DNA of 32,000 bases from Xanthomonas campestris pv. campestris str. ATCC 33913. GTDB lineage: Bacteria; Pseudomonadota; Gammaproteobacteria; Xanthomonadales; Xanthomonadaceae. Both the position numbers and the translations under genes were made by a program. The notes beneath the pieces were generated by a model. The model was not told the DNA's origin. It made no database searches and was given only the letters and a program-made list of their open reading frames with translations. Location of the stretch: the NCBI RefSeq assembly GCF_000007145.1, contig NC_003902.1:697436-729435 (forward strand), in the 5' to 3' direction. How positions within the stretch are numbered: position 1 is the stretch's first letter; each line of letters begins with the position of its first letter. Below, in pieces: positions 13,028 to 31,745 of the stretch.

Positions 13028-13047
13028 GTTACCGTCAGTCGCGGGCG

Positions 13048-14436: not shown

Positions 14437-14815
14437 CAGGAAGCTCCAAGTAAAGCGTCGCCACCAGGCAGAGCCCGGAGCGCAGACGCATTGCAAATGC
14501 AAAAAAGTGAGGCTCGGAGCGTTCCCGTGAACCGCGCTGCGAGATGGTGGAACAACCCAATCAAAGAGCGATGGGTTTGTCGGCACCACGAAAGGCGTCG
14601 GGTGGGGCGGGCGAGCGGATCGATCGATCCTGGCCTCGCCGGCGGTCCCTAAGGGAAACGGACGGCCGCATGCAGACCCGGCAAGTGTACGCCCGATTGG
14701 CGCGCTGCACAAAACTGTGTGATCGCGGTTGGGGAACGGGTCAGTTGTTTCAGCTGCAACCACCTCGCGCGACAGGTCGTACAATCAGCGCTTCAGCCAC
14801 AGCCGCAGGACGGTC

Positions 14816-15805: not shown

Positions 15806-15848
15806 ACCAGATGCCGATGCTCACGCATGCGGCAGGGCAGGGGCAGGC

Positions 15849-16523
15849 ATGAGCAGGCCCCTGGAGCTGTTTTCGTACTGGCGCTCCAGCGCCGCCTATC
15901 GCGTACGCATCGGGCTGCAGCTGAAGGCGCTGGCCTACGTCGCGCACCCGGTGCATCTGGTGCGCGATGGCGGCGAGCAACACGCCGCCGCTTACGCGCA
16001 ACTCAACCCGCAGGAGCTGGTGCCGACGCTGCGGCACGGGCAGGTGGTGATCCCGCAGTCCCTGGCCATCCTCGAATACCTGGACGAGGCATTTGCGGAC
16101 AGCGCGCCGCTGTTGCCGACCGGCCCCGCCGCGCGTGCGCGGGTGCGGGCGCTGGCACAGGTGATCGCTTGCGATGTGCACCCGCTCAACAACCTGCGCG
16201 TTACCCAATTCCTGGAGCACACCTGGGACGTCTCGCCAGCGCAGCGCCATCACTGGACTGCGCACTGGACTGCGCACTGGATGCAGCAAGGCTTGGCAGC
16301 GCTGGAAACCCACCTGGCGGGCGACGCACAGACCGGGCAGTTCTGCCACGGCGACACGCCGGGCCTGGCCGATTGCGTGCTGGTGCCGCAGCTCTACAAC
16401 GCGCGGCGGTTCGCCGTGGAGTTGGCGCCGTATCCGACGCTGCAGCGGATCGAACAGGCCTGCCTGGCACTGCCGGCGTTCGATGCGGCACGGCCGGAAA
16501 CGCAGCCTGACGCGGCAGTCTAG
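15849..16523 (+). CDS. maiA: Maleylacetoacetate isomerase (zeta-class glutathione S-transferase)
   Basis: LELFSYWRSSAAYRVRIGLQLK...NPQELVPTL...IPQSLAILEYLDE is the GST-zeta signature (SSxxxRVRIAL-type motif). 224 aa. Confidence 0.9.
   Translation: MSRPLELFSYWRSSAAYRVRIGLQLKALAYVAHPVHLVRDGGEQHAAAYAQLNPQELVPTLRHGQVVIPQSLAILEYLDEAFADSAPLLPTGPAARARVRALAQVIACDVHPLNNLRVTQFLEHTWDVSPAQRHHWTAHWTAHWMQQGLAALETHLAGDAQTGQFCHGDTPGLADCVLVPQLYNARRFAVELAPYPTLQRIEQACLALPAFDAARPETQPDAAV
16251..16280 (+). repeat. 12-bp tandem repeat (2.5 copies of cactggactgcg) inside maiA
   Basis: Read directly: cactggactgcg cactggactgcg cactgg. In frame it encodes HWTAHWTAHW. Confidence 0.95.
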
Positions 16524-16662
16524 ACGCGGAGAATGCCGGCCGCATCTGCCGTTCGGGCAGCCTTCCGCAATGCGGGGGGCGCAGAGCGATCGACGCGCGT
16601 GCGGCCGCTGATGCTCACGCCGGTCTACTGCAGGGTGCTGATCTGCGCCAGCGCTGCAGTGC

Positions 16663-16764
16663 CCTTGCCCGCCCACCCTCGCGGGACACGCTGCAAGGAC
16701 GTCCTTCTAAGCGCTGACGCGGCATCCATGCCGCGTCAGGTCCCGCGACGGTGGGCGGGCAAGG
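16663..16764. repeat. Nested palindromic (REP-like) element between convergent maiA and pilU
   Basis: Outer arms are ccttgcccgcccaccctcgcgggac (16663-16687) and gtcccgcgacggtgggcgggcaagg (16740-16764), complementary at 24 of 25 positions. They enclose the perfect palindrome aaggacgtcctt (16696-16707). They also enclose the hairpin ctgacgcggcat-cc-atgccgcgtcag (16714-16739). Confidence 0.85.
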
Positions 16765-16851
16765 ACCAGTCAAGATGGTCGTTGCGCGTAACTATCCTCA
16801 AAGCAACCAGCAGACTTTCTGGTGCGGTGTCCTCGCCGATCGCGGGACCAT

Positions 16852-16873
16852 GTGGCGGCATGGATGCCGCCAC
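16852..16873. repeat. Second palindrome sharing a GCGGCAT-NN-ATGCCGC core with the element at 16714-16739
   Basis: The sequence is gtggcggcat-gg-atgccgccac. Its reverse complement carries the same 16-nt core gcggcatccatgccgc as the hairpin 130 nt upstream. Confidence 0.8.
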
Positions 16874-16982
16874 TGAGCCTCCACGGAAGGATTCACGGCG
16901 TGTCCCGCAAGCGGTGAGGGCACTGCGCCCTCGACCGACCAGGCGTTTTGCTCTGGACTTGTCACTGCATCCAGCAAGATGC

Positions 16983-17039
16983 GACCAACAAAACCACTGC
17001 GCTCACCGCCAGGCGGGCGCACGCTACATTTTGTTGGTC
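16983..17039 (-). terminator. Long-loop inverted repeat just downstream of the pilU stop (possible terminator)
   Basis: gaccaacaaaa (16983-16993) pairs with ttttgttggtc (17029-17039), a perfect 11-bp stem ending 4 nt from the pilU stop codon. The loop of about 35 nt contains further GC-rich self-complementarity. Confidence 0.4.
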
Positions 17040-17042
17040 GTT

Positions 17043-18176
17043 CTAAATAAACCCATGGCTGATCTTCGGCGCCGAGGCCGACTCGTAGTCGGCATACGGA
17101 TCGTGCTCGCCGGAGCCGCCTTCGGAAAGACGGAATTTCAGCGCCAAGCCGTCGCGCGAGTCGGCCGCGCGCAGCGCTTCCTCCTGCTCGATCTCGCCGG
17201 TCTTGACCATCCGGAACAGGCACTGGTCGAAGGTCTGCATGCCTTCTTCCAGCGACTCCTCCATCGCCTGCTTGACCTCGTGCACCTGCCCGCGACGCAG
17301 CAGGTCGCGGATCATCGGCGTGTTGAGCAGCACCTCGGTGGCCGGGCGGCGGCGCCCGTCCAGTCCCTTGACCAGGCGCTGGGACACCACTGCGCGCAGA
17401 TTCAGTGCCAGGTTCATCAGCACGTTCTTGTGCGCGCTTTCCGGGAAGAAGTTGAGGATGCGCTCGATGGTCTGGTCGGCGTTGTTGGAGTGCAGCGTCG
17501 CCAGGCACAGATGGCCGGTTTCAGCGAAGGCGATCGCCGCCTCCATGGTCTCGGCGTCCAGGATCTCGCCGATCAGGATCACGTCGGGCGCCTCGCGCAT
17601 CGCGTTCTTCAGCGCGCTCTGGAAGGCGTGCGTGTCCAGGCCCACCTCGCGCTGGTTCACGATCGACATCTTGTGCTTGTGCAGGTACTCGATCGGGTCC
17701 TCGATGGTGAGGATGTGCCCGGTCGTGGTGCTGTTGCGGTGGTCGATCATCGAGGCCAGCGAGGTCGACTTGCCCGAACCGGTCGAACCGACCACCAGCA
17801 CCAGCCCGCGCGGGGTCATGATGACGTCCTTGAGCACCTGCGGCAGGTTGAGCTCCTCGATGCTCGGGATCCGGCTGCGGATGGCACGGATCACCATGCC
17901 CACTTCGCCGCGCTGCTTGAACACGTTCACGCGGAAGCGCCCGGCGTCGGACAGAGCGATGGCCATGTTGAGTTCCAGCTCGCGCTCGAACTGCGGCACC
18001 TGGCCTTCGTCCATCAATGAGTAAGCGATTTTCTTGACCATCCCCGGCGGCAACCCCGTATTGCCGAGCGGGTAAAGCTTGCCTTCGATCTTGATGTACA
18101 CCGGCGCGCCGGTGGTCAAAAACATGTCCGAGGCATTCTTTTCGGTCATCAGCTTCAGGAAGTAGCCGATATCCAT
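17043..18176 (-). CDS. pilU: Type IV pilus retraction ATPase, PilU-like (PilT/PilU family)
   Basis: MDIGYFLKLMTEKNASDMFLTTGAPVYIKIEG... Contains Walker A GSTGSGKST, IEDPIEY, the Asp box and the His box ETGHLCLATLHSNNA. The C-terminal region ...GEIEQEEALRAADSRDGL is closer to PilU than PilT as I recall them. The ATG at 18176 is preferred over the TTG at 18182. Confidence 0.88.
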   Translation of the reverse strand: MDIGYFLKLMTEKNASDMFLTTGAPVYIKIEGKLYPLGNTGLPPGMVKKIAYSLMDEGQVPQFERELELNMAIALSDAGRFRVNVFKQRGEVGMVIRAIRSRIPSIEELNLPQVLKDVIMTPRGLVLVVGSTGSGKSTSLASMIDHRNSTTTGHILTIEDPIEYLHKHKMSIVNQREVGLDTHAFQSALKNAMREAPDVILIGEILDAETMEAAIAFAETGHLCLATLHSNNADQTIERILNFFPESAHKNVLMNLALNLRAVVSQRLVKGLDGRRRPATEVLLNTPMIRDLLRRGQVHEVKQAMEESLEEGMQTFDQCLFRMVKTGEIEQEEALRAADSRDGLALKFRLSEGGSGEHDPYADYESASAPKISHGFI

Positions 18177-18274: not shown

Positions 18275-18658
18275 ATGACGGCTAGCTTCGCATACTTGCG
18301 GCGATCCCTGTATGGCATCGCCTGTTTCATGGTTCTCTCCGCTCCCGCCGCCGCCCAGGTGGCGCCGGAGCTCACTGCCGCCGAACAGGCCGTGCAACGC
18401 GCCACCCAGGCCGATGCCGACCAATACGCCCCTGATCTGGTCAATCTGGCCCGCCAGGAACTGATGCAGGCCCAGCAGGCGCAACTGGACAAGCGCCAGC
18501 GCAAGCAGGTACCACAGATCGCCCTGCGCGCCGCTGCCGATGCCGACCTGGCCAAGGCGCGCAGCGAAGAGGCGGTGGTCAGCGCCCAGCTGGAGCAACG
18601 CCGCAAGGAAGTGGCGCAACTGCAGAACAGCCTCAACACCGGGGAGGGCGGCCGATGA
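18275..18658 (+). CDS. DUF4398-like secreted/periplasmic helical protein
   Basis: ATG at 18275 gives MTASFAYLRRSLYGIACFMVLSAPAAAQ (signal peptide). This is followed by an Ala/Gln-rich helical region (AEQAVQRATQADADQYAPDLVNLARQEL) typical of DUF4398. Its stop overlaps the next start (ATGA). Confidence 0.7.
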   Translation: MTASFAYLRRSLYGIACFMVLSAPAAAQVAPELTAAEQAVQRATQADADQYAPDLVNLARQELMQAQQAQLDKRQRKQVPQIALRAAADADLAKARSEEAVVSAQLEQRRKEVAQLQNSLNTGEGGR

Positions 18659-19545
18659 AACTGCGCCCCTTCCTCTATATCGGTGTGCTGAGCCTGGCCA
18701 CGCTGCCGTCGCTGGCGATGGCGGCCAAGGACGACCCGCAGGCCGATGCACTTAATCGGCGCTTGGCCTTGTTGCAGAACGATCCGCAGACCAGTGACCT
18801 GGCCCGCTACGAGCGCCTGCAGGCGCAACAGACCGTGGCGGCCCTGGCCGAAGCCAAGCGTCGCGACCGCGATGAGCTGGTGTTCCTGGCCGACCGCCGG
18901 GTCGAGATTGCCGAGCTCACCGCCCGCACCGCGCTGGCCCGGCGCGAGCTGGACCGTCTGGAAGGCACCCGCAACGACTTGCTGATCGAAGCCAGCCGTC
19001 GCGATGCCTCCCGCGCCCGGCAGGAGGCCGAGCGTCTGCGCGTGCAGGCGCAGATCCAGGCCGAGGAAGCCGAGCGCATGCGCCAGGCGGCCGAGCAGGA
19101 AACCCTGGCGCGCCAGGATGCCGAGCTGGCCCTGACCAGCGTGGCCGGCAAGCAGACCGCCAAGCTCAACGCGGCCCAGCAAAAGGCCCTGCAGCTCGCC
19201 CACGAAGAGGCCGAACTGGTGGCCGGGGCCAAGCTGCCGTCGTCCAAGGTCGATGGCCGCGGCGAAGTGTTCTCGCTCGGCAGCGACGCCTTTGCCGGCA
19301 AGACGGCCCTGGCCGGTGCCGGTTCCGGCCAGGCCAAGGCGCTGGCCGAGTACCTGCAGATCGGCAAGAAGGGCCGGGTCACCATCGTCGGCTACGACAG
19401 CGACGCGGCCACGGCCAAGAAGCGTGCCGAGGCGCTTCGCGATGCCCTGGTCGCCGGTGGCGTTGCCGCCGCGCGCTTGCAGGTCAGTGGCACCAAGGGC
19501 ACCGCCAGCAAGTCGCGTGCGGCTGAGGTCGTTGTGCTGCCGTAG
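18655..19545 (+). CDS. Envelope protein with signal peptide, long coiled coil and degenerate OmpA-like C-terminal domain
   Basis: MKLRPFLYIGVLSLATLPSLAMA is a signal peptide. About 170 residues of E/R/A/Q-rich heptad-like sequence follow. The C-terminus GRVTIVGYDSDAATAKKRAEALRDALVAGGVAAARLQVSG resembles the peptidoglycan-binding OmpA_C fold but lacks the full canonical motif. Confidence 0.75.
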   Translation: MKLRPFLYIGVLSLATLPSLAMAAKDDPQADALNRRLALLQNDPQTSDLARYERLQAQQTVAALAEAKRRDRDELVFLADRRVEIAELTARTALARRELDRLEGTRNDLLIEASRRDASRARQEAERLRVQAQIQAEEAERMRQAAEQETLARQDAELALTSVAGKQTAKLNAAQQKALQLAHEEAELVAGAKLPSSKVDGRGEVFSLGSDAFAGKTALAGAGSGQAKALAEYLQIGKKGRVTIVGYDSDAATAKKRAEALRDALVAGGVAAARLQVSGTKGTASKSRAAEVVVLP

Positions 19546-21799: not shown

Positions 21800-22999
21800 A
21801 TGTCCAACCGCACCGCAAACAGCCACGATGGCGAGCGCGCGCTGTCGCTCGCAACGCTGGCGATCCATGGTGGACAGTCGCCGGACCCCAGCACCGGGGC
21901 GGTGATGCCGCCGATCTACGCGACGTCCACCTATGCGCAGTCCAGCCCGGGCGAGCATCAGGGCTTTGAGTACTCGCGGACCCACAACCCTACGCGTTTT
22001 GCCTATGAGCGCTGTGTTGCCGTGCTGGAAGGCGGCACCCGCGGGTTTGCCTTCGCCTCCGGCATGGCCGCGACCTCCACAGTGATGGAGTTGTTGGACG
22101 CCGGCAGCCACGTGGTAGCGACCGATGACCTGTACGGCGGCTCGTTCCGTCTGTTCGAGCGTGTGCGTCGCCGCACCGCCGGCCTGGACTTCAGTTTCGT
22201 CGACCTGACCGACCCGGCCGCGTTCGAGGCCGCGATCCGCCCGACCACCAAGATGGTCTGGATCGAAACCCCGACCAACCCGATGCTCAAGCTGGTCGAC
22301 ATCGCCGCCATTGCGGCGATCGCGCGTAGGCACGGCCTGCTGGTGGTGGTGGACAACACCTTCGCCTCGCCGATGCTGCAGCGCCCGCTGGAATTGGGCG
22401 CCGACCTGGTGGTGCATTCGGCCACCAAGTACCTCAATGGCCACTCGGACATGGTGGGCGGCATCGCCGTGGTCGGCGACAACGCCGAACTCGCCGAACA
22501 GATGGCCTTCCTGCAGAACTCGATCGGCGGCGTACAAGGCCCGTTCGACAGCTTCCTGGCCCTGCGCGGGCTCAAGACCCTGCCGCTGCGCATGCGCGCG
22601 CACTGCGAAAACGCCCTGGCGCTGGCGCAGTGGCTGGAGACCCACCAGGCGATCGAAAAAGTGATCTACCCCGGCTTGGCCTCGCACCCGCAGCACGCAC
22701 TCGCCAAGCAGCAGATGTCCGGCTTCGGCGGCATCGTCTCGATCGTCCTCAAGGGCGGCTTCGAGGCAGCCAAGCGTTTCTGCGAAAAGACCGAACTGTT
22801 CACCCTGGCCGAATCGTTGGGTGGTGTGGAAAGTTTGGTCAATCATCCCGCCGTCATGACCCATGCCTCGATCCCTGTGGCCCGCCGTGAACAGCTAGGC
22901 ATCAGCGATGCGCTGGTGCGGCTGAGTGTGGGGGTTGAGGATGTGGGGGATTTGCGGGGGGATTTGGAGCGTGCGCTTGAGGCGTCTCAGTCTCCATGA
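21800..22999 (+). CDS. metB: Cystathionine gamma-lyase/gamma-synthase family PLP enzyme
   Basis: 399 aa. It has the Cys/Met-metabolism PLP family signature DNTFASP...HSATKYLNGHSD (PLP lysine). Pairing with the upstream CBS suggests reverse transsulfuration. metB is the name used in the Xanthomonas literature for the gene flanking the LPS locus. Confidence 0.92.
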   Translation: MSNRTANSHDGERALSLATLAIHGGQSPDPSTGAVMPPIYATSTYAQSSPGEHQGFEYSRTHNPTRFAYERCVAVLEGGTRGFAFASGMAATSTVMELLDAGSHVVATDDLYGGSFRLFERVRRRTAGLDFSFVDLTDPAAFEAAIRPTTKMVWIETPTNPMLKLVDIAAIAAIARRHGLLVVVDNTFASPMLQRPLELGADLVVHSATKYLNGHSDMVGGIAVVGDNAELAEQMAFLQNSIGGVQGPFDSFLALRGLKTLPLRMRAHCENALALAQWLETHQAIEKVIYPGLASHPQHALAKQQMSGFGGIVSIVLKGGFEAAKRFCEKTELFTLAESLGGVESLVNHPAVMTHASIPVARREQLGISDALVRLSVGVEDVGDLRGDLERALEASQSP

Positions 23000-24381
23000 C
23001 AGATTCTTCGCAACGTCAGGGCATCGTCGCCTCCTGGCGGAATGGTCTGGCTGGACTGCATCTGCAGGCGTGGGTGCGTCGGCAGACATGGCTGCAGCGC
23101 TTCTACCGGATGTTTCCGACCAGCTTGCGCGGCAGGGTATCTGCCGCACTGTCCGCCCGCTCGGTCATTCAGACGCGTTTCCAGCGTACGTCGGCCTGGG
23201 AGCGTGCGGCCGGTGAGGCCCGTGCATCCCTGGATGCAGAGATGCAAAATGCTCCGCCAACTCCGACGCCTACGGCTGCGGCAGGAATCAATATTCTTGG
23301 CTACATCCGTGGAGAGTTCGGGCTGGCAGAAAGTGCCAGGATGTACGCTCGTGCGCTGATCAACGCGGGCGCCTCGGTGTCTCTGTATGACCTGGATATG
23401 GGGCTTCCCCACTCCTGGCGGGACCGCAGTATGGATGCCTTCATCGATCAGCGCATGCCGCATCGCGTCACCATCGTGTTCGTGAATCCTGACTATCTGG
23501 AGGCCGCCTTCGAACAAGTTGGTCGCGCCAGACTGGCTGGTCATTACGTGATTGCCTGCTGGTTCTGGGAGCTGGAAGTAATCCCGAGTACTTGGCTACG
23601 CGCCATTGAGCTTGTAGACGAGATCATGGTTGCGTCACAGTTCATTGAAAGCGCGTTTCGGCACGTGACGGATAAACCGATCATGCGAGTGCCTCTACCG
23701 GTATCGGACTTGCGGGACAGCGGTCTGCAGCGAGAGGACTTTGGCCTGCCGGCTGGCAAGTTCACCTTTCTTTTTAGCTTCGATTTCCATTCGGTTGCTG
23801 CCAGAAAAAATCCGCAAGCCGTGGTACACGCTTTTCAGCAAGCGTTTCCGAACAAGCGCGATGATGTGCACCTTGTGTTGAAGTCCAGTAACGGCCACAT
23901 GTATCCCGAACAGATGCGCGAACTTCTCGCGCTTGTGGTGGGAGATGCGCGTATCCAGCTTCGGGATGAGGTGATCGACAAAATGCATGTTCGTGCGCTT
24001 CAGCGTTGCTGCGATGTCTATGTCTCTCTGCATCGCGCCGAGGGCTTCGGTTTGGGTCTGGCCGAATGCATGTCGTTGGGCAAGCCCGTTATCGCAACCG
24101 GATGGTCGGGCAATATGGAATTCATGACCGAAAGTAACTCCGTGCTTGTCCCGTACGATCTGGTGCCTGTTGCTGGAAGATACCCCGAATCTGAGGGCGC
24201 GCAGTGGGCCGAGCCGAAAGTTGCAAGGGCAGCCGACGCCATGCGTCGCCTCGCGGATGACCCGGAATATGCGCGAGCCATTGGCGAGGCTGCAAGAAGA
24301 GACGTCGGTTTGAAGCTGGCTCCAGACAGGGCGGCCCAGGCTATTTTGTTCAGGACTGCGAATGTCTTAGCGGCAAGTTGA
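22996..24381 (+). CDS. GT-B fold glycosyltransferase (GT4-like), first gene of the O-antigen cassette
   Basis: 461 aa. The C-terminal half carries LHRAEGFGLGLAECMSLGKPVIAT (E-x7-E motif). The N-terminal domain begins near INILGYIRGEFGLAESAR. The ATG at 22996 overlaps the metB stop (ATGA). An alternative start at 23242 (MQNAPP...) cannot be excluded. Confidence 0.85.
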   Translation: MTDSSQRQGIVASWRNGLAGLHLQAWVRRQTWLQRFYRMFPTSLRGRVSAALSARSVIQTRFQRTSAWERAAGEARASLDAEMQNAPPTPTPTAAAGINILGYIRGEFGLAESARMYARALINAGASVSLYDLDMGLPHSWRDRSMDAFIDQRMPHRVTIVFVNPDYLEAAFEQVGRARLAGHYVIACWFWELEVIPSTWLRAIELVDEIMVASQFIESAFRHVTDKPIMRVPLPVSDLRDSGLQREDFGLPAGKFTFLFSFDFHSVAARKNPQAVVHAFQQAFPNKRDDVHLVLKSSNGHMYPEQMRELLALVVGDARIQLRDEVIDKMHVRALQRCCDVYVSLHRAEGFGLGLAECMSLGKPVIATGWSGNMEFMTESNSVLVPYDLVPVAGRYPESEGAQWAEPKVARAADAMRRLADDPEYARAIGEAARRDVGLKLAPDRAAQAILFRTANVLAAS

Positions 24382-24464
24382 GGCGCGGCTGCCATACCGT
24401 GTTCCTGATGTTGACGCCGGCCGCTTACCAAGTAGTGACTATTTCAGAGGTAGCAACGTTGGAC

Positions 24465-25250
24465 ATGATTCGGTCCGTATGGGCCTTCCGATACTTCATC
24501 CTCTCATCGATCAGGAATGATCTGCGCCTGCGCTTTTTGCGCAGCAAGCTCGGCGCCTTGTGGATGATCATTCATCCGCTCATGCAGGTGCTGATCTTTG
24601 CAACGATCCTCTCGGAGGTCCTGGCAGCAAAGTTGCCTGGTGTCAACAACAAGTTTGCTTACGCCCTCTACCTTATGGCGGGGACACTTTGCTGGAGCAT
24701 GTTTGCAGAATCTATCGGCAAATGCGCATCCTTGTTTGTGGATAACGGAAATCTGATGAAAAAGCAGGCGTTTCCACGGATATGCCTTCCGCTCATCGCG
24801 GGCGGGACCGTCATGGTGAATAACTTGCTGTTATTTTTAGCGATCATTGTTGTTTTCGCGATTTTGGGGCACTCCCTGGGACCCCAGGCAGGCTGGCTGC
24901 CGCTGCTGATGCTCCTGACGCTTGCGTTCGCGATGTCGATCGGTCTGCTGCTCGGGATTTTCAATGTCTTCGTGCGCGACATCGGGCAGGTTGTACCGGT
25001 CGTTCTGCAGGCAATGTTCTGGGTGACGCCAATCGTCTACACCATCGATATCCTTCCGCAGCAGACGCGGGATTTATTTAAGCTCAACCCGCTGTTCCCG
25101 CTCGTCAGCGCCTACCAGGGGGTGCTTCTTTACGGGCGTGCACCGGATTGGATGAGTCTGCTGCCTCTGACCGCCGCCACGGCCGTCCTGGGTTTTGTAT
25201 CGCTGGTCGTCTTTCGTCGCGCAAGTGCCGAAATGGTGGATGCGCTATGA
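24465..25250 (+). CDS. wzm: O-antigen/polysaccharide ABC transporter permease (ABC-2 type)
   Basis: MIRSVWAFRYFILSSIRNDLRLRFLRSKLGALWMIIHPLMQVLIF is a typical Wzm N-terminus, followed by about 6 hydrophobic spans. Alternative starts are the ATG at 24408 and the TTG at 24378, so the start is uncertain. Its stop overlaps the wzt start (ATGA). Confidence 0.85.
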   Translation: MIRSVWAFRYFILSSIRNDLRLRFLRSKLGALWMIIHPLMQVLIFATILSEVLAAKLPGVNNKFAYALYLMAGTLCWSMFAESIGKCASLFVDNGNLMKKQAFPRICLPLIAGGTVMVNNLLLFLAIIVVFAILGHSLGPQAGWLPLLMLLTLAFAMSIGLLLGIFNVFVRDIGQVVPVVLQAMFWVTPIVYTIDILPQQTRDLFKLNPLFPLVSAYQGVLLYGRAPDWMSLLPLTAATAVLGFVSLVVFRRASAEMVDAL

Positions 25251-26533
25251 GCGCTATGCTGACGGTCGAGGGATTGGGAAAGTCCTATCGTGTTTGGGGT
25301 AGCGAGTGGCTGCGTGCGGCCAGCTGGTTTGGTCTGAAGGTCAAGCCGCGGGAGGAGCATTGGGTGCTGCGCAACGTCGGCTTTTCGGTCACTGCTGGTG
25401 AGTCGATTGGAATCATGGGGCGAAATGGCGCTGGCAAGAGTACGCTGCTCAAGCTGATCACGGGGACATCGCAGCCCACTGAAGGGCGTATCGTCCGGCG
25501 CGGGCGCATTGCTGCGATCCTCGAGCTCGGGATGGGGTTCAACCCGGACCTGAGTGGACGAGAAAATGCCCGTCACTCGGCCGGGCTCATGGGCTACACG
25601 CTGGACCAGATTGAGGCCGTACTGCCGGAAATTCAGGAGTTTGCTGAGATCGGAGATTACTTCGATGAGCCGGTGCGCACTTACTCCAGCGGCATGCAGG
25701 TACGCGTGGCATTCGCGGTCGCTACCGCATTCCGGCCCGATGTGCTGATCGTCGATGAAGCATTATCGGTCGGAGATGTGTATTTTCAGGCAAAATGTTT
25801 CAAGCGTATTCTGTCCTTCAAGGAAAAGGGCATGACGCTGATTCTTGTGAGTCACTCCGTAGGGGACGTCGTCAAGCATTGCGACCGGGCTATATTAATT
25901 AAGGATGGCGGCGTCTATGCCGATGGTCCGTCCCGGGAGGTATCCAACCTCTATCTGGACGAGCTGTTTGGCAAGAAACCCGCGTCGCTTCAAGCCGAGG
26001 CCAAGGATACCCCGAAGGATCTACGCGCCGGCACGGAAGACTTGTTTCATACCCGGCCTTACTACAACGCTGGCGAGCACCGCTGGGGTCAGGGGGGCGC
26101 AAGGATTTTGGATTACGTGGTTGTCAGTGACGGCCAGGAATTCCCAGCACGCGTGGAAAGTGGCTCAAGGACGGCGTTCTACGTCAAGATCGCATTCGAC
26201 CAGGATTTCGATAGCGTGGTCCCCGGCATTCTGGTGAAAACGCTTGAGGGATTATTCCTCTACGGTACCAATTCCTTTCTTTCCAGCGAGGGCCGTACCG
26301 GAATCGCGGCCAAAGCCGGCGACGTCATCGTCTGCAAGTTTACGATGCCTCTTGACCTCAATGAAGCCAATTATCTGATCTCGCTCGGCATCTCCAGCGG
26401 CGATCCGCTGGTGGAATTGACACCGCTGGATCGGCGCTACGATGCCATCGTGCTGAACGTGGCCCGAGGCATGCAGTTCTGGGGGATGATGGATCTGAAG
26501 GCCGATTTCGAAATCGTGGAGGCCTTGTCATGA
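25247..26533 (+). CDS. wzt: O-antigen ABC transporter ATP-binding protein with C-terminal glycan-binding-type extension
   Basis: ATG at 25247 (MSAMLTVEGLGKSY...). Contains Walker A GRNGAGKST, signature YSSGMQVR and Walker B LIVDEALS. About 165 extra C-terminal residues (RWGQGGARILDYVVV...DFEIVEAL) are laid out like the Wzt_C beta-sandwich. Confidence 0.92.
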   Translation: MSAMLTVEGLGKSYRVWGSEWLRAASWFGLKVKPREEHWVLRNVGFSVTAGESIGIMGRNGAGKSTLLKLITGTSQPTEGRIVRRGRIAAILELGMGFNPDLSGRENARHSAGLMGYTLDQIEAVLPEIQEFAEIGDYFDEPVRTYSSGMQVRVAFAVATAFRPDVLIVDEALSVGDVYFQAKCFKRILSFKEKGMTLILVSHSVGDVVKHCDRAILIKDGGVYADGPSREVSNLYLDELFGKKPASLQAEAKDTPKDLRAGTEDLFHTRPYYNAGEHRWGQGGARILDYVVVSDGQEFPARVESGSRTAFYVKIAFDQDFDSVVPGILVKTLEGLFLYGTNSFLSSEGRTGIAAKAGDVIVCKFTMPLDLNEANYLISLGISSGDPLVELTPLDRRYDAIVLNVARGMQFWGMMDLKADFEIVEALS

Positions 26534-26573: not shown

Positions 26574-28868
26574 ATGATCGAGTCACTGAATATAGGGGCG
26601 CTTGTGGCAGCCCTGCCAGAGAAGTACCAGCCGATCTTTGCGCATCCGGAGCTGTCCGACGGCAGCTCGCGTGGGTGCGAGGACAGGCTTGTGCTGATCC
26701 GCCAATGCGCGCAGCGCCTGCAGCATGCGCTTGGCCGCCCGCTGCGTGTGCTCGACCTTGGCTGTGCCCAGGGGTTTTTCTCTCTGAACCTTGCAGCCGA
26801 TGGTCACACGGTACACGGCGTGGATTTTCTCGATCTCAACGTCAATGTGTGCAAGGCGCTGGCTGCCGAGAACCCTGCATGTGCAGCTACCTTTGAGCAC
26901 GGCACGGTGGAAGATGTGATAGATCGCCTTGAGCACGATGAGTGCGACCTGGTCCTCGGCCTGAGCGTCTTCCATCATCTAATTCACGACAAAGGCATCC
27001 TGAAGGTATCCGCGCTGTGTCGGAAGCTTTCAGAAACGACCAGCGCGGGCATTTATGAGCTCGCCCTGCGTGAGGAGCCGCTCTACTGGGCGCCATCGTT
27101 GTCGCAGGACCCGGCCGAGTTGCTATCCAGTTATGCATTTTTGCGCCTGCTTTCACAGCAGCAGACACATCTTTCGGCGGTTTCAAGGCCACTATATTTT
27201 GCCAGTAGCCGTTTCTGGTACGTGGATGGAGCCATTGGTAATTTTACGTCTTGGTCATCCGAGTCACATGCGCATGGCCGCGGCACGCATCTGCAATCGC
27301 GCCGTTATTATTTCAGCGAACAGTCGTTCGTAAAGAAAATGACGCTGGGCGTGGGAGATCGCGCAGAGATCAATTTGCAGGAGTTCGTCAATGAGGTGGA
27401 GTTTCTGGGCAATCCACCGGAGAGCTACCCGGCACCGCGCCTGATCGCATCGCTGAACGATTCCAGGGATCTGTTCATTGCAAGGTCCATGATGAATGGA
27501 CGGCTTCTCTCCCAGGCGATCGATGATGGGGCCGCTTATGATGCTGATGAAATAATTGCACAGATTCTTGCGCAACTTGTTTTGCTTGAGCGTGCTGGTC
27601 TGTACCACAACGACGTGCGCTGCTGGAATATCCTTATCGCGCCTGAAGGGCGTGCTGTATTGATCGACTATGGCGCAATATCGGCCAATCCATTCGATTG
27701 CTCATGGCTCGACGATCTTCTGCTTTCCTTCCTGATCACGGTCAAGGAGATTCTTGAGCGCAAGGTTGTTCCCTCCAGTCCGAGCCGGGAGCCCGCTCTG
27801 GATTTCATGACGCTGCCCGCGCGTTATCGCAATGCGTTCATCGGGTTTTTTGGTCAGAATCGGTCCCCGTTGACATTCGCCTTGCTGCAACAGTGTCTTC
27901 AGCAGGCAGATGCGACCCCTCACTCTGCCCCCGAGTGGGTGACCATCTATCAGCGCCTGCAGAAAGCACTGCTCGGCTATAATGCGCGGCTTAGTGCTGT
28001 GCATATTGAGACAGAGCATCATCGGGTGGAGCTTGCCGCGCGCGGGGCGGCAATTGAGCATCTTCGCGATAGTACATTGCAAGACCAAGAGCGCACTCAG
28101 GCGTTTGAGCAGGGGGTTGCCGCTGCCGAGGAAAGGTACAAGCGCCTCGAGGAGGAGAGCGAGAAGCTGGCGGCGTGGGCGAAAGGACTTGAAGCTCAGA
28201 CTATCGAGTCCAACCGTGACAAAGAAGCGCTTGCCGCGCTCAATGCAGAACTGGAATCAGACAAAGCTGCGCTCGCGACGCGAATTGCGTCACTTGGCCA
28301 GGAGCTGGAAGAGCGTCAGCGTGCGCGTGAGTTGGCCGAGTTGCTGGCTGCCGACGTGGGACGGCTGACCGAGGAGCGTGACGCTGCCAGGTCCGATCTC
28401 CTCGACACCCAAAGCGTCGTTGAGCAGCACCAGGCGACGATTACAGCGCTGGAGGCGCGTGTCGCCGTTCAGCAGCAACAGATCAGTGGCCTTGAGAGTT
28501 CGCGCGATCAGGAAAGAAATAGGTTGAGGGAGTTGCAGGTGGATCTCTCGCGTAGCATGGACGGTACTGCAAGTGCGCGTGAGTACATTCGTGAGCTTGA
28601 GATGGCGGTGGATGCTCTGGAGGGACAGATCAACAGCCTCCACGGAAGTCGGTCCTGGCGCGTTACGGCACCTCTGCGTCTGTTCACCACACGGGTACTG
28701 AAGCGTGGCAATGCTGACGCTGCGACCATCCGCAAGGTTTCAGACGCGCGCCTTGAAAGTCCTGTCCATACGGATGGTGTGACACCTACACCGGCAGAGG
28801 CTGCGATGGACGAACGCTTAGCTGCAGTCGATCAATTGGGTAGCCGGATTCGTAAGTCGCTTAAATAA
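26574..28868 (+). CDS. wbdD: WbdD-like bifunctional methyltransferase/kinase with long coiled coil (O-antigen chain terminator; wxcB-type in X. campestris nomenclature)
   Basis: 764 aa. LPEKYQPIFAHPE and GRPLRVLDLGCAQGFFSLNLAADG (SAM-binding motif) parallel the E. coli O9a WbdD N-terminus as I recall it. The kinase-like motifs are LYHNDVRCWNILI and LIDYG. Residues of about 480-690 are heptad-rich (E/L/A/Q/R). SRSWRVTAP follows, as in WbdD (SRSWRMT). Confidence 0.9.
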   Translation: MIESLNIGALVAALPEKYQPIFAHPELSDGSSRGCEDRLVLIRQCAQRLQHALGRPLRVLDLGCAQGFFSLNLAADGHTVHGVDFLDLNVNVCKALAAENPACAATFEHGTVEDVIDRLEHDECDLVLGLSVFHHLIHDKGILKVSALCRKLSETTSAGIYELALREEPLYWAPSLSQDPAELLSSYAFLRLLSQQQTHLSAVSRPLYFASSRFWYVDGAIGNFTSWSSESHAHGRGTHLQSRRYYFSEQSFVKKMTLGVGDRAEINLQEFVNEVEFLGNPPESYPAPRLIASLNDSRDLFIARSMMNGRLLSQAIDDGAAYDADEIIAQILAQLVLLERAGLYHNDVRCWNILIAPEGRAVLIDYGAISANPFDCSWLDDLLLSFLITVKEILERKVVPSSPSREPALDFMTLPARYRNAFIGFFGQNRSPLTFALLQQCLQQADATPHSAPEWVTIYQRLQKALLGYNARLSAVHIETEHHRVELAARGAAIEHLRDSTLQDQERTQAFEQGVAAAEERYKRLEEESEKLAAWAKGLEAQTIESNRDKEALAALNAELESDKAALATRIASLGQELEERQRARELAELLAADVGRLTEERDAARSDLLDTQSVVEQHQATITALEARVAVQQQQISGLESSRDQERNRLRELQVDLSRSMDGTASAREYIRELEMAVDALEGQINSLHGSRSWRVTAPLRLFTTRVLKRGNADAATIRKVSDARLESPVHTDGVTPTPAEAAMDERLAAVDQLGSRIRKSLK

Positions 28869-28902: not shown

Positions 28903-29982
28903 ATGCAAGAGGTTGTGGCCGTGAAGAGAGTCATTGTTCTGGGTGCGCAGGTACCGTTTGTCAGAGGAGGAGCAGAGTTCCTGAATGAAGAACTTGTCCG
29001 CCAGATCAATCTGTGGGGAAAAAAACGCCAGGTTGTCGCGGAATTGGTACAGCTGCCTTATCGGTGGTATCCGGAAACGGAAATCCTCTCGTCCACGCTT
29101 GCGTGGAGGCTACTGGATCTAAATGAGAGCAACGGGCAGAAGATCGACCTATGCATCTGTACCAAGTTTCCGACGTATGCTGCTTCGCATGCGAACAAGA
29201 CGCTTTGGCTCGTTCATCAGCACAGGGTTCTTTATGATCTGGAGCGGACGCGTTTTGATTTTCCTCATTTGACCTCCCAGGACAGCGCGCTGCGCGATTC
29301 ATTGCGTGCTTCGGATACGCAATTGTTGTCGGACATCGAGTCGCGCTACACCATATCGCAGACCGTTACCGACCGACTTCAACGGTTCAACGGCCTGTCG
29401 TCGCAGGTTCTATACCCTCCATCTAAGCTGGCGCCTTTCATTACATCTGGTGATTACGGCGACTACGTCTTGTGCATCGGCAGACTAGAGTCGATGAAAC
29501 GACCCGACCTGCTCATCCGTGCAGCGGCGCATGCTCCAAAGGCTAGGGTCGTGATTGCGGGAACGGGCGCGAGTGATTACGCACTCTCCCTGGCGCCGTT
29601 GGTACGCGAGCTCGGTCTGGAGGATCGGGTAGAGCTGACGGGCTTTGTCGAGGATGAGAAACTGCTAGCGCTGATCGCTAACTGTAGAGCGGTTTTCTAC
29701 TCTCCCGTGGATGAAGATTACGGGTTTGCGACCTTGGAGGCATTTGCGGCGCATAAGCCAGTCATTACTGTCGACGACAGTGGCGAAGTGGCGAGAATTG
29801 TGGAGGCCACGGGAGGGGGGTGGATCAGCGGCCCGACGGCAGAGGAGATAGCGCAGAGCATTGGGGATTGCTACGCACGAACCGATGCGCAATTACGCGC
29901 GCTTGCCGACGGCGGATACCGGCTGAGTACTTCGATTACGTGGGATCTTGTGATACGCAATCTTGTGGAGGGCAAGATTTGA
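28903..29982 (+). CDS. GT-B fold glycosyltransferase (GT4-like)
   Basis: 359 aa. VIVLGAQVPFVRGGAEF is the N-terminal Rossmann strand with a glycine-rich loop. The C-terminal domain carries VDEDYGFATLEAFAAHKPVI (E-x7-E). Confidence 0.88.
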   Translation: MQEVVAVKRVIVLGAQVPFVRGGAEFLNEELVRQINLWGKKRQVVAELVQLPYRWYPETEILSSTLAWRLLDLNESNGQKIDLCICTKFPTYAASHANKTLWLVHQHRVLYDLERTRFDFPHLTSQDSALRDSLRASDTQLLSDIESRYTISQTVTDRLQRFNGLSSQVLYPPSKLAPFITSGDYGDYVLCIGRLESMKRPDLLIRAAAHAPKARVVIAGTGASDYALSLAPLVRELGLEDRVELTGFVEDEKLLALIANCRAVFYSPVDEDYGFATLEAFAAHKPVITVDDSGEVARIVEATGGGWISGPTAEEIAQSIGDCYARTDAQLRALADGGYRLSTSITWDLVIRNLVEGKI

Positions 29983-31745
29983 ACACGCGCTTCCGAATTG
30001 CCATGGTCGGGCCATTGCCTCCTGAGCATTCCGGTATCGCCGAGTATTCGGCCGGGCTGGTGGAACTGCTGCGCGATCGGGGCGTACAGGTCCACACCGT
30101 CGTGCGCGGTGACGTCGAGCGCATGGGCATGCAGCAGGTGATCGATGAGCTTGGGCAAGCGGATGCGATCGTGTACCAGATGGGAAATCATCCCGCCTTC
30201 CACGGTTGGATGCTTCCACTTATGGCACAGGTGCCCGGCATTGTTCATCTGCATGATCTAGTGCTGCACCATATGGTTGCGGGTGTTCTGAGCGACGAAG
30301 GTCTTCTCAGCGATGGATACGCGCGGGTGCTGGAGCAATGGCACTCCGCTGCGGATGTGAAGAACGCAACGCTTGCACTGCGATACGGCACTCCGATCTG
30401 GGGACGTGACGAAGTCGTGCACTACCCACTTCACCAGGTGGCGACGAAGTTGGCGCTTGAGGTGGTCGTGCATTCCAGGTACGCGGCTGAGAGAGTTGCA
30501 AAAGAGTTTCCGTGGCTGCCTGTTACGGTCATTCCGCAGCTCTATCCTGTCGCCGCGCGGCATCGTGTGCGTGATTGCCTCAATACCATTGCGGTGATGG
30601 GGGGAGGGCAAGCGAATCGCAGGTTCGACTGGATCGTTGAGGCCTTATTGCAGATCGACCCCGTGTTGACTCGCCCGCTTACCCTCGAAATAGCTGGAGA
30701 TGTCGAACCTGCGGTACAGCTTCAGCTTGAACGAATTTCGGGTTTGCAGAACGTGCGATTGGTCAATCACGGCCGCATCGACGACGAGCAATTCCGGGAT
30801 ATGTTCGCGCGCGCCGACCTGATGATCGCGCTTCGTCAGCCGACGATGGGCGAAGCATCCGCAGTGGTGTCCAAGGCGTTGCAGGCGGGCCTGCCTGTGG
30901 TGGTGTCGGATCAGGCATGGTATGCGGAACTGCCGTCCTGTGTGAGGAAATTGCCCCCCACCCCCGAATGTCCCGATGTTCTGGGGAGTCTGTTGCAGCG
31001 GCTTGCGCTCGATTCAACGGCCTATTCGTATTGGGCAGAGGAATGTAAGGATCAGGCCGGCCGCCCCGAGCTAGATCCATACGCCGCCACTGATCGCTAT
31101 GTCAGGCTACTCAAATCCAACCGTGTGTTCTCTGCGTTTAGAGATCGCGTGGCCAATGCATTGGCCAGCCTCAGGATTGACTTGGAATCCCCGGCGGCTC
31201 GGGAAGTGCAGCGAATCGATGTCCGCGCGTCTCTACGAGGGGATCGTTGGGTCGATTCTGCGCTGGCAGCACTGGCTGAGCGAGGGCTCGATTCTTATGG
31301 ACGAATGATCTCCGCTAGGGTCAGCCCGTACCCTCATACGCAAGCCCTGCCGCCAGATGCCTGGCAGGGCAGTGCTGCATTGCTCAACACTCATCTGGGC
31401 GTGGTGCAGCCATCAAGCATGCTGACCGTGCGCCTGGTGTTGACCAATGACAGCAAGGTTCAGTGGCTGAGTCCATCGAACCACTCTGTAATGCCGTTTG
31501 GCATATATATTGGTTACTTCTGGCACTCCAGCAATGTCCCGCTGGCACCCGAACAGCCGCGCCAGTGGCTTGAAGAGGTAATTGAGCCGGCATCGTCCGG
31601 CGAGCAGCTTATAACACTTCAAGCGCCAGACGCGCCGGGCGATTATGTCCTGGAGGTCGACCTTGTCCAGGAATCAGTTTCTTGGTTCAAAAGTCGGGGG
31701 TTTGTACCCGCCCGGCTACTCGTACGCGTAGAAGCTCCCCAGTAA
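29979..31745 (+). CDS. Glycosyltransferase (GT4-like N-terminal about 370 aa) fused to an uncharacterised C-terminal region of about 200 aa
   Basis: A TTG at 29979 overlaps the preceding stop (TTGA) and gives MNTRFRIAMVGPLPPEHSGIAEYS. An ATG at 30003 would truncate the first beta-strand. The C-terminal part (...MLTVRLVLTNDSKVQW...GDYVLEVDLVQESVSWF...) alternates hydrophobic and polar residues like a beta-sandwich. Confidence 0.82.
   Translation: MNTRFRIAMVGPLPPEHSGIAEYSAGLVELLRDRGVQVHTVVRGDVERMGMQQVIDELGQADAIVYQMGNHPAFHGWMLPLMAQVPGIVHLHDLVLHHMVAGVLSDEGLLSDGYARVLEQWHSAADVKNATLALRYGTPIWGRDEVVHYPLHQVATKLALEVVVHSRYAAERVAKEFPWLPVTVIPQLYPVAARHRVRDCLNTIAVMGGGQANRRFDWIVEALLQIDPVLTRPLTLEIAGDVEPAVQLQLERISGLQNVRLVNHGRIDDEQFRDMFARADLMIALRQPTMGEASAVVSKALQAGLPVVVSDQAWYAELPSCVRKLPPTPECPDVLGSLLQRLALDSTAYSYWAEECKDQAGRPELDPYAATDRYVRLLKSNRVFSAFRDRVANALASLRIDLESPAAREVQRIDVRASLRGDRWVDSALAALAERGLDSYGRMISARVSPYPHTQALPPDAWQGSAALLNTHLGVVQPSSMLTVRLVLTNDSKVQWLSPSNHSVMPFGIYIGYFWHSSNVPLAPEQPRQWLEEVIEPASSGEQLITLQAPDAPGDYVLEVDLVQESVSWFKSRGFVPARLLVRVEAPQ

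What the first reader, a model, noticed from the sequence alone, without database searches (positions are those of the whole stretch)
26574..28868. WbdD-like three-module protein: SAM methyltransferase, kinase and a coiled coil of about 210 residues (predicted chain-length ruler)
The sequence shows an N-terminal class-I methyltransferase motif (VLDLGCAQG) and a eukaryotic-like kinase catalytic loop (HNDVRCWN...IDYG). An uninterrupted heptad-rich segment spans about nt 28000-28646 and ends at SRSWRV. In E. coli O9a, WbdD caps the growing O-polysaccharide with methyl-phosphate, and its coiled-coil length sets the chain length. If the same holds here, this O-antigen is capped at its non-reducing end. 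Its modal length would then be encoded by the coiled-coil length, which can be tested by deletion or insertion of heptads. The region after SRSWRV (about 70 aa) is shorter than the membrane/WbdA-binding tail I recall for WbdD and unlike it, so partner contacts may differ.
Basis: partly seen in the sequence, partly recalled or inferred. Interest (0 to 1): 0.75.

Follow-up and report, generated by a model that had tools for sequence, protein, structure and literature searches.

The report
Xanthomonas WxcB, a WbdD-type O-antigen terminator
This gene is wxcB of the Xanthomonas campestris O-antigen cluster, a clear relative of E. coli WbdD, the enzyme that caps sugar chains and sets their length with a rod-like spacer. 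That kinship was already published, but strains carry spacers of different lengths, which gives a ready-made test of the ruler idea.

Summary
The ORF at 26574-28868 (+, 764 aa) is real. It is wxcB of the X. campestris pv. campestris wxc O-antigen locus and is identical to AAM39918/AAY50672.

Residues 6-447 match the E. coli O9a WbdD crystal structures (E 1e-100; model TM 0.81-0.92). The WbdD methyltransferase residues tested by mutation and the kinase catalytic residues are conserved. The acceptor residues differ: Y230 becomes His and R270 becomes Ile.

Residues 455-691 form a proline-free heptad coiled coil of 237 residues (about 35 nm, against about 20 nm in WbdD). It ends at SRSWRVTAPLR, a motif E. 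coli WbdD also has. The 68-residue tail lacks the roughly 50-residue basic amphipathic segment of WbdD.

The upstream Wzt is 56% identical to O9 Wzt, and its cap-binding domain matches PDB 2R5O (E 9e-62).

The WbdD similarity was already published in 2012 and 2016, so this is a new member of a known kind.

The new point is a natural allelic series. Near-identical X. campestris proteins have 684, 687, 764, 799 or 834 residues, and every length difference lies in the coil. A 105-bp repeat of five heptads is present in 1-3 copies. Diverged alleles keep exactly 237 coil residues.

The cap chemistry and the ruler effect are untested.

The parts
26574..28868 (+). wxcB: complete ORF of 764 aa plus stop, a WbdD-type methyltransferase-kinase-coiled-coil protein
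   Evidence: The ORF is listed. Identical proteins are AAM39918/AAY50672 (Q8PCV0), seen on 119 contigs. WbdD PDB chains match at E 1e-100.
26574..27209 (+). N-terminal class I SAM methyltransferase domain (about residues 1-212)
   Evidence: Pfam Methyltransf_25/31/11 match. Y18, H134, H135 and R205 correspond to WbdD Y16, H132, H133 and R203 and are invariant in 53 homologues. Boundaries are taken by alignment to WbdD residues 1-210 (PMC3482155).
27210..27935 (+). Eukaryotic-like kinase domain (about residues 213-454)
   Evidence: It aligns to WbdD residues 211-459. D347, W351, N352, D365 and E270 correspond to WbdD D351, W355, N356, D369 and E274 and are invariant. WbdD Y230 is His232 and R270 is Ile266. 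Foldseek TM to WbdD is 0.81-0.92.
27936..28646 (+). Coiled coil of 237 residues (455-691), about 34 heptads and about 35 nm
   Evidence: AF2 helices span 455-560 and 569-691. Heptad Viterbi z = 8.9, one discontinuity at residue 580, no prolines, top period 3.5.
28245..28349 (+). Single copy of the 105-bp (35-aa, 5-heptad) unit AELESDKAALATRIASLGQELEERQRARELAELLA, which is present in 2 or 3 tandem copies in other X. campestris strains
   Evidence: Protein alignments are. TRF finds 105 bp x 3.0 copies at 93% matches in L025. blastn of the window against L025/L026 shows flanks about 98.1-98.9% identical. TRF finds no repeat in the window itself.
28647..28679 (+). SRSWRVTAPLR motif (residues 692-702) at the foot of the coil
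   Evidence: W695 and R702 are invariant, and S692, S694, R696, T698 and P700 are at least 90% conserved, in 53 homologues. The motif is present in E. coli O9 WbdD at residue 592 and in a Klebsiella WbdD. There is only one match in the window.
28680..28865 (+). Short C-terminal tail (residues 703-764): a basic amphipathic stretch, a disordered linker at 712-739, and a terminal helix at 740-763
   Evidence: Secondary structure and pLDDT are from the AF2 model. The short tail co-occurs with wxcC/wxcD.
24408..25250 (+). wzm, the ABC-2 permease of the O-antigen exporter
   Evidence: Pfam ABC2_membrane E 6e-25.
25247..26533 (+). wzt, the ABC ATPase with a C-terminal carbohydrate-binding domain (residues 263-422, nt 26033-26512)
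   Evidence: Pfam ABC_tran plus Wzt_C E 1e-28. It is 56% identical to E. coli O9 Wzt over the full length. The carbohydrate-binding domain matches PDB 2r5o at E 9e-62.
22996..24381 (+). wxcA, a GT4 glycosyltransferase and first gene of wxc region 1
   Evidence: Pfam Glycos_transf_1 / Glyco_trans_1_4 match. The synteny is conserved in the fetched loci.
28903..29982 (+). wxcC, a GT4 glycosyltransferase
   Evidence: Pfam Glycos_transf_1 E 3e-23. It is present only in loci whose WxcB has the short tail.
30003..31745 (+). wxcD, a 580-aa GT4-containing protein with an unassigned C-terminal region
   Evidence: Pfam Glyco_trans_1_4 E 2.5e-7. It co-occurs with the short tail.

Best explanation
WxcB is the chain terminator and length-setting component of the ABC-transporter-dependent O-antigen pathway of X. 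campestris.

By analogy with WbdD it forms a parallel, probably trimeric, coiled coil. The foot of the coil (the SRSWRxTAPLR motif plus a short basic tail) sits at the cytoplasmic membrane with the polymerising glycosyltransferases. The head (kinase plus methyltransferase) is held about 35 nm away.

When the undecaprenyl-PP-linked D-rhamnan is long enough to reach the head, the kinase phosphorylates the non-reducing terminal D-rhamnose and the methyltransferase methylates that phosphate. The cap blocks further elongation. It is also the ligand that the C-terminal domain of Wzt needs before Wzm/Wzt exports the chain.

Coil length should therefore set the modal chain length, and alleles with 1, 2 or 3 copies of the 35-residue unit should give stepwise longer O-antigen.

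Shown here: homology, conserved catalytic residues, the coil and its properties, gene context, the similarity of the Wzt binding domain, and the length polymorphism.

Inferred: the cap chemistry, the trimer, the membrane anchoring, which glycosyltransferase is recruited, and the ruler effect.
For: - Homology: WbdD PDB chains match at E 1e-100 over residues 6-447. The AF2 model superposes on WbdD with TM 0.81-0.92.
- Catalytic residues: the methyltransferase residues whose mutation abolishes methylation in WbdD (Y16, H132, H133, R203; PMC3482155) are Y18, H134, H135 and R205, invariant in 53 homologues. The kinase residues D351, W355, N356, D369 and E274 are also conserved.
- Coil: 237 residues with z = 8.9 against shuffles. 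Applying the same boundaries to E. coli gives 133 residues x 1.48 A = 197 A, matching the published figure of about 200 A (PMC5082667).
- Spacer signatures: diverged alleles are 70-74% identical in the catalytic part but only 41-55% in the coil, yet show no indel across 237 residues. Near-identical X. campestris alleles differ only by coil indels of +35, +70, -77 and -80 residues. Recent internal duplications across the family mostly have periods that are multiples of 7.
- Context: wzm-wzt-wxcB is syntenic in the fetched loci, and all 24 Xanthomonas/Stenotrophomonas loci examined have a Wzt with a binding domain.
- Wzt: its binding domain matches the O9a cap-binding domain 2r5o at E 9e-62. It stays 84-96% identical in loci where WxcB is only 54-61% identical.
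- Genetics: wxcB::Tn5 in B100 lacks O-antigen on LPS but retains 56% of wild-type rhamnose (PMC4878081). E. coli wbdD mutants likewise make polymer but cannot export it (PMC3482155).
Against: - No methyl-phosphate or other terminal cap has been reported for a Xanthomonas O-antigen in the papers I could search.
- WbdD Y230, whose Y230F change kills kinase activity, is His in WxcB and in all 53 homologues. R270 is Ile, D350 is Asn, and two residues of the sulphate pocket are acidic. The acceptor, and possibly the hydroxyl that is modified, may therefore differ.
- The tail lacks the roughly 50-residue basic amphipathic region found in the long-tail relatives, E. coli WbdD included, so membrane anchoring is unexplained.
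- The Tn5 mutant may be polar, and it is in B100, whose WxcB is only 61% identical.
- Steffens et al. attribute chain-length control to the FucNAc side branches (PMC4878081).
- An X. euvesicatoria wxcB mutant showed no LPS change. That gene is of the long-tail class and sits in a different cluster.
- The AF2 monomer model breaks the coil at 561-568 with low confidence. This is probably a monomer artefact, but a real hinge is not excluded.
Confidence: 0.75

Rival explanations
1. WxcB caps the chain as described, but the coiled coil serves only for oligomerisation and scaffolding. Chain length would be set by something else, such as the terminator-to-polymerase ratio or the side branches, and the length alleles would be neutral repeat slippage.
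For: - In E. coli O9a the WbdA:WbdD stoichiometry also shapes the size distribution (King 2014, as cited in PMC11231755).
- Branchless wxcK and wxcN mutants have 3-5 times more rhamnose (PMC4878081).
- A 105-bp tandem repeat is intrinsically unstable.
Against: - Exactly 237 coil residues are kept without any indel at 41-55% identity.
- Indels and internal duplications are enriched for multiples of 7.
- Engineered coil insertions and deletions shift the modal length in WbdD (PMC5082667, PMC11231755).
Confidence: 0.15
2. The kinase is inactive or has another role because the acceptor tyrosine is replaced. WxcB would then act as a methyltransferase-only terminator, like E. coli O8 WbdD, or would add only a phosphate.
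For: - WbdD Y230F is inactive in vitro, and WxcB has His at that position.
- R270 is Ile and D350 is Asn.
Against: - The catalytic Asp, the Mg-binding Asp, the HxDxRxWN loop and E270 are invariant across 53 homologues, which argues for a kinase under selection.
- The phosphate-binding cluster of the methyltransferase (H134, H135, R205) is also invariant.
- His232 is itself invariant, suggesting a functional substitute rather than decay.
Confidence: 0.06
3. WxcB is not a terminator. It would modify another substrate, such as the primer or adaptor, internal residues or the core, and O-antigen loss in the mutant would be due to polarity on wxcC-E.
For: - Polar effects of the Tn5 insertion were not excluded.
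- The authors called the function of WxcB 'still obscure' (PMC4878081).
Against: - The full three-module architecture is conserved.
- The gene sits next to a Wzt whose binding domain is of the O9a type.
- According to PMC11231755, such extended coiled coils are a characteristic marker of terminator proteins in ABC-transporter-dependent glycan assembly.
Confidence: 0.04

Closest known systems
E. coli O9a / K. pneumoniae O3 WbdD (bifunctional kinase-methyltransferase chain terminator with a coiled-coil ruler; PDB 4azs, 4azw, 4uw0)
   Same: - Same order of methyltransferase, kinase, coiled coil and SRSWR motif.
- About 40% identity over the catalytic 450 residues.
- Same catalytic and phosphate-binding residues.
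- Same position after wzm-wzt.
- The partner Wzt is 56% identical, with a binding domain of the 2R5O type.
- Same null phenotype in the literature.
   Different: - The coil has 237 residues against about 133. It is more regular (no prolines and 1 discontinuity, against 3 prolines and 4 discontinuities).
- The tail has 68 residues against 112 and lacks the basic, aromatic-rich amphipathic segment.
- Acceptor residues differ: Y230 is His and R270 is Ile.
- The polymer is a D-rhamnan with Fuc3NAc branches, not a polymannan.
- The glycosyltransferases show only generic GT4 similarity to WbdA/WbdB.
WxcB of X. campestris pv. campestris B100 (CAP53115, 762 aa), the genetically studied allele
   Same: - Same locus and gene order.
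- Same coil length of 237 residues and the same short tail class.
   Different: - Only 61% identical overall: 72% in the catalytic part and 43% in the coil.
- The published mutant data therefore come from a diverged allele.
Other coiled-coil terminators of ABC-transporter-dependent glycans (K. pneumoniae O12 WbbB, the O4 GT137 enzyme, O7 ORF6, and E. coli O8 WbdD)
   Same: A terminating enzyme sits at the distal end of an extended coiled coil (PMC11231755).
   Different: Those use a Kdo transferase, an unrelated kinase or a methyltransferase alone, and some carry the polymerase modules on the same polypeptide. WxcB has the WbdD-type catalytic pair and no glycosyltransferase module.

Membership tests
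WbdD (O9a-type bifunctional O-antigen chain terminator) | N-terminal class I SAM methyltransferase with the phosphate-binding cluster (Y16, H132, H133, R203) | tested here: met
   Pfam methyltransferase models match. Y18, H134, H135 and R205 are invariant in 53 homologues. The roles of these residues are from PMC3482155.
WbdD (O9a-type bifunctional O-antigen chain terminator) | Eukaryotic-like kinase domain with the catalytic loop and Mg-binding Asp | tested here: met
   The PDB WbdD alignment has E 1e-100 and the fold match has TM 0.81-0.92. D347, R349, W351, N352 and D365 are invariant.
WbdD (O9a-type bifunctional O-antigen chain terminator) | Acceptor-binding residues Y230 and R270 (specific for mannose) | tested here: not met
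   Y230 is His232, invariant in 53 homologues, and R270 is Ile266. This fits a different acceptor sugar. It does not affect the catalytic machinery.
WbdD (O9a-type bifunctional O-antigen chain terminator) | Extended C-terminal coiled coil between the catalytic head and the membrane-proximal region | tested here: met
   Residues 455-691: AF2 helices, heptad z = 8.9, controls.
WbdD (O9a-type bifunctional O-antigen chain terminator) | C-terminal membrane-associated amphipathic region and polymerase recruitment site | tested here: inconclusive
   The SRSWRxT motif is shared, but the roughly 50-residue basic amphipathic segment is absent. The tail class co-varies with the downstream glycosyltransferase set, which fits a recruitment role. 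Binding itself was not tested.
WbdD (O9a-type bifunctional O-antigen chain terminator) | Encoded next to wzm and a wzt with a cap-specific carbohydrate-binding domain | tested here: met
WbdD (O9a-type bifunctional O-antigen chain terminator) | Parallel homotrimer | not testable with these tools
   Only monomer prediction was available. The monomer model folds the coil back at 561-568 with pLDDT below 50.
WbdD (O9a-type bifunctional O-antigen chain terminator) | Adds methyl phosphate to the non-reducing terminal sugar | not testable with these tools
   No chemical report was found for Xanthomonas.
WbdD (O9a-type bifunctional O-antigen chain terminator) | Coil length determines the modal chain length | not testable with these tools
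   Indirect support only: length is conserved despite sequence divergence, and indels tend to preserve the heptad phase.

The most novel reading that the evidence does not exclude
X. campestris strains tune O-antigen modal length through a variable-number tandem repeat inside the ruler, plus larger coil deletions that keep or nearly keep the heptad phase. The 105-bp, five-heptad unit is present in 1-3 copies. This gives coils of about 157 to 307 residues (23-45 nm) in otherwise 99% identical proteins and about 98-99% identical clusters. It would be a natural, heritable and reversible length dial, possibly selected by phage, tailocin or plant immune pressure. The short-tail WxcB clade would dock on WxcC/WxcD-type glycosyltransferases rather than through the WbdD amphipathic anchor.
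Probability: 0.4. Interest if true: 0.55.

Novelty: new member of a known kind. Interest (0 to 1): 0.4.

Why it matters
It gives a mechanistic reading for wxcB, a gene whose role was called 'obscure' in 2016. It also explains why wxcB mutants lose surface O-antigen yet keep rhamnose.

It predicts a terminal methyl-phosphate cap on a plant-pathogen rhamnan. No such cap turned up in my literature searches.

The most useful result is the set of natural alleles. They differ essentially only in coil length, so the ruler model can be tested outside the Enterobacteriaceae without protein engineering. They also link O-antigen length variation to phage or tailocin sensitivity and to plant immune recognition.

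It does not change the known picture of how ABC-transporter-dependent O-antigens are terminated.

Tried and rejected
- The primary ruler paper (Hagelueken 2015, PMC4650267) is not held (after a malformed first request). I relied on PMC5082667 and PMC11231755 for the ruler result.
- No standard coiled-coil predictor was available. I wrote an ad hoc heptad score.
  - With a strict whole-protein shuffle threshold, the sliding-window version flagged only 505-542 and 613-643.
  - I replaced it with a register Viterbi with region shuffles and controls.
- Self-BLAST for internal repeats returned nothing, which was a method failure. I replaced it with an offset-identity scan.
- MAFFT misaligned the E. 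coli and WxcB C-termini. I recovered the shared SRSWR motif by regex.
- TRF finds no repeat in the window itself. The repeat is visible only by comparison with other strains.
- Literature searches for a methyl-phosphate or methyl terminus on Xanthomonas O-antigen found nothing relevant.
- phmmer with the last 110 residues gave only 15 hits, one of them spurious (P0165, a repetitive protein).
- I did not treat the antisense ORFs inside the gene as genes. The + strand ORF has strong homology, and antisense ORFs of this size are common in GC-rich DNA. They were not examined further.
- I considered an SMC-like or other structural role because of weak SMC and DUF1664 hits. I rejected it as coiled-coil composition matches far below the cutoffs.
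Full report
**1. Observation**

The ORF 26574-28868 on the + strand (ATG start, 764 codons) is present as described.
- VLDLGCAQG at residues 59-67
- HNDVRCWN at 345-352
- IDYG at 364-367
- SRSWRV starting at nt 28647

The start codon is credible. A purine-rich GAGAG lies about 8 nt upstream, wzt ends 40 nt upstream, and the alignment to WbdD begins at residue 6.

**2. Identity of the gene**

Identical proteins occur on more than 100 X. campestris contigs. They include AAM39918 (ATCC 33913) and AAY50672 (8004), UniProt Q8PCV0.

The window is the metB end of the Xanthomonas LPS locus. The gene order is: cystathionine beta-synthase, a metB-like gene, a GT4 glycosyltransferase (wxcA), wzm, wzt, this gene, then two GT4 genes (wxcC and wxcD). 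G+C falls from about 65% to about 57% at nt 23000. Near-identical loci continue with wxcE, gmd, rmd and a GtrA/GT2/large-membrane-protein set. The gene is therefore wxcB of the wxc cluster (PMC4878081).

**3. Catalytic head**

phmmer against PDB sequences gives the E. coli O9a WbdD chains at E 7e-101 to 2e-99 over residues 6-447. The next hit is at E 3e-6. Identity is about 40%.

An AlphaFold2 model built on 53 homologues has pLDDT above 90 for most of residues 40-400. It superposes on WbdD structures with Foldseek E 1e-44 and target-normalised TM 0.81-0.92. Unrelated kinases and methyltransferases follow at E 4e-9 or worse.

I mapped the residues tested by mutagenesis in WbdD (PMC3482155).

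| WbdD residue | WxcB residue | Conservation in 53 homologues |
|---|---|---|
| Y16 (methyltransferase) | Y18 | invariant |
| H132 (methyltransferase) | H134 | invariant |
| H133 (methyltransferase) | H135 | invariant |
| R203 (methyltransferase) | R205 | invariant |
| D351 (catalytic Asp) | D347 | invariant |
| W355 | W351 | invariant |
| N356 | N352 | invariant |
| D369 | D365 | invariant |
| E274 | E270 | invariant |
| Y230 (acceptor-binding) | H232 | invariant His |
| R270 (acceptor-binding) | I266 | variable |
| D350 | N346 | Asn in 51 of 53 |

Two positions of the WbdD sulphate pocket, N34 and Q35, are E36 and D37 here.

My reading is that both enzyme activities are intact and the acceptor site is adapted to a different sugar. 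That fits the D-rhamnan backbone made from GDP-D-rhamnose; the gmd and rmd genes lie downstream.

**4. Coiled coil**

AF2 predicts helices 455-560 and 569-691. The break at 561-568 has pLDDT below 50. It is the fold-back expected when a homo-oligomeric coil is modelled as a monomer, although a hinge cannot be excluded.

A register-tracking heptad score over residues 455-691 gives:
- one continuous register with a single discontinuity at residue 580
- z = 8.9 against 300 shuffles
- 69% hydrophobic residues at a/d positions against 29% elsewhere
- no prolines
- a dominant 3.5-residue period

The same score gives z = 1.6 and -0.2 on two catalytic segments of equal length. It gives z = 4.6 on the coil of E. 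coli WbdD (459-591), which has three prolines and four discontinuities.

At 1.48 A per residue the E. coli segment is 197 A, in line with the published figure of about 200 A (PMC5082667). By the same measure WxcB spans about 351 A.

**5. Foot and tail**

The coil ends at SRSWRVTAPLR. This is not specific to Xanthomonas. E. coli O9 WbdD has IHRSRSWRMT at residue 592 and a Klebsiella WbdD has SRSWKMT. In 53 homologues W695 and R702 are invariant, and S692, S694, R696, T698 and P700 are at least 90% conserved.

After the motif there are two tail classes.
- **Long tail (109-129 residues).** This class includes E. coli (112 residues) and carries a roughly 50-residue basic amphipathic stretch.
- **Short tail (63-68 residues).** This is the WxcB clade of Xanthomonas and Stenotrophomonas. 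It keeps only a short basic stretch (APLRLFTTRVLKR), a disordered linker and a terminal helix ending in DQLGSRIRK.

In the loci I fetched, every intact short-tail gene is followed by wxcC and wxcD homologues (15 loci). Every long-tail gene lacks them (5 loci). This fits the tail being the docking site for the polymerase, as in WbdD-WbdA (PMC11231755). The two classes may simply be two clades, so the correlation is weak evidence.

**6. Partner transporter**

Wzt (25247-26533) is 56% identical to E. coli O9 Wzt over its full length. Its C-terminal domain (residues 263-422) matches PDB 2R5O at E 9e-62. From my own knowledge, 2R5O is the O9a Wzt domain that binds the capped chain end.

Across Xanthomonas and Stenotrophomonas loci this domain stays 84-96% identical where WxcB itself is only 54-61% identical. 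That fits recognition of a constant terminal structure. It is the best indirect evidence for an O9a-like cap.

**7. Literature**

- Hagelueken et al. 2012 already noted close WbdD kinase homologues in 'several Xanthomonas species'.
- Steffens et al. 2016 noted similarity of WxcB to the methyltransferase and kinase domains of WbdD but called its function 'still obscure'. They did not mention the coil.
- Their wxcB::Tn5 mutant of B100 has no O-antigen on LPS yet retains 56% of wild-type rhamnose. That matches the WbdD null phenotype, in which polymer is made but not exported.
- Caveats: polarity was not excluded, and B100 WxcB (CAP53115, 762 aa) is only 61% identical to the protein in this window.
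- Some database sources already name homologues 'O-antigen chain-terminating methyltransferase'.

**8. What is new: natural variation of the ruler**

Among X. campestris proteins 99-99.5% identical to this one, lengths are 684, 687, 764, 799 and 834 residues. Every difference lies in the coil.

The +35 and +70 alleles carry two and three tandem copies of a 35-residue (five-heptad) unit that is single in the window at nt 28245-28349. TRF reports 105 bp x 3.0 copies at 93% matches in L025. The flanking clusters have the same gene order and are about 98.1-98.9% identical.

The 687-residue allele has a 77-residue (11-heptad) deletion. X. nasturtii has an independent 77-residue deletion at a different position. 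The 684-residue allele lacks 80 residues, and X. vesicatoria has a 38-residue insertion.

Conversely, alleles that have diverged to 41-55% identity in the coil (70-74% in the head) keep exactly 237 coil residues with no indel.

Across the family the distance from the catalytic loop to the SRSW motif ranges from 202 to 420 residues. Recent internal duplications mostly have periods that are multiples of 7 (35, 21, 7, 70, 28, 77, 63, 14). Some have period 11.

Length conserved while sequence drifts, and length changes that keep the heptad phase, are what a spacer under selection for length should show. These counts are not phylogenetically independent and should be read as suggestive.

**9. Verdict**

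This is a WbdD-type terminator in a plant pathogen, a new member of a known kind whose kinship was already in print. The cap chemistry and the ruler effect remain inferences.

Overall interest is moderate. It rests on three points:
- the natural allelic series, which makes the ruler hypothesis directly testable
- the altered acceptor site
- the reduced tail

Noticed in passing
window 28647-28679; proteins P0166, P0167, P0168, P0171, P0172, P0174: The SxSW[RK]xTxPLR motif at the foot of the coil also occurs in proteins with other architectures. Examples are a GT4 protein (P0166), a 1513-aa GT4+RgpF protein (P0168), an FkbM methyltransferase (P0171) and several proteins with no Pfam match (P0167, P0172, P0174). 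It is often present in two or three copies, each preceded by a short helical stretch ending in L-x-x-S-x-SWR. It may be a general docking or membrane module of glycan-assembly proteins.
   Followed up: partly
L001-L026, downstream of the wxcB homologue: The tail class of WxcB co-varies perfectly with the downstream glycosyltransferases. Tails of 63-68 aa come with wxcC+wxcD (15 loci) and tails of 111-116 aa come without them (5 loci). This may reflect polymerase docking, or simply two clades.
   Followed up: partly
window 26033-26512 and the same region in L001-L022: The Wzt carbohydrate-binding domain is better conserved across species (84-96% identity) than the terminator it works with (54-61%).
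   Followed up: partly
P0089 (Stenotrophomonas rhizophila, 803 aa), from about residue 508: The coil contains a near-perfect 11-residue tandem repeat (26 of 28 identical at offset 11). This is a hendecad rather than a heptad period. Offset 11 is also the best in P0090, P0085 and P0103.
   Followed up: no
L015 10001-13046 (X. arboricola NL_P126); L020 10001-11510 (X. phaseoli ATCC 49119): The wxcB homologues appear fragmented. In L015, residues 132-192 are duplicated, about 540 extra nt lie in the coil region, and the ORF from the match start is only 194 aa. In L020 the match is split over three frames. These could be pseudogenes or assembly errors in repeats.
   Followed up: partly
window about 23000: G+C drops from about 65% in the housekeeping genes to about 55-60% from wxcA onward. 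From my own knowledge, this is typical of horizontally exchanged O-antigen clusters.
   Followed up: no
window 30003-31745 (wxcD): Only the middle of the 580-aa WxcD matches a GT4 model, and weakly. The C-terminal part, roughly 270 residues, has no Pfam match.
   Followed up: no
window 18655-19545 (+) and 16533-18020 (+): Long ORFs with no Pfam match lie upstream of the LPS locus. The 296-aa ORF is also called as a gene without a domain in L025. The second ORF (16533-18020) overlaps the stretch corresponding to the minus-strand T2SSE/PilT-like gene of L025 and is probably spurious.
   Followed up: no
window 1-16000: The rest of the window holds ordinary housekeeping genes: a PLP-dependent enzyme, an M3 oligopeptidase, a beta-ketoacyl synthase, a DinB-type polymerase and a DEAD-box helicase.
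   Followed up: partly
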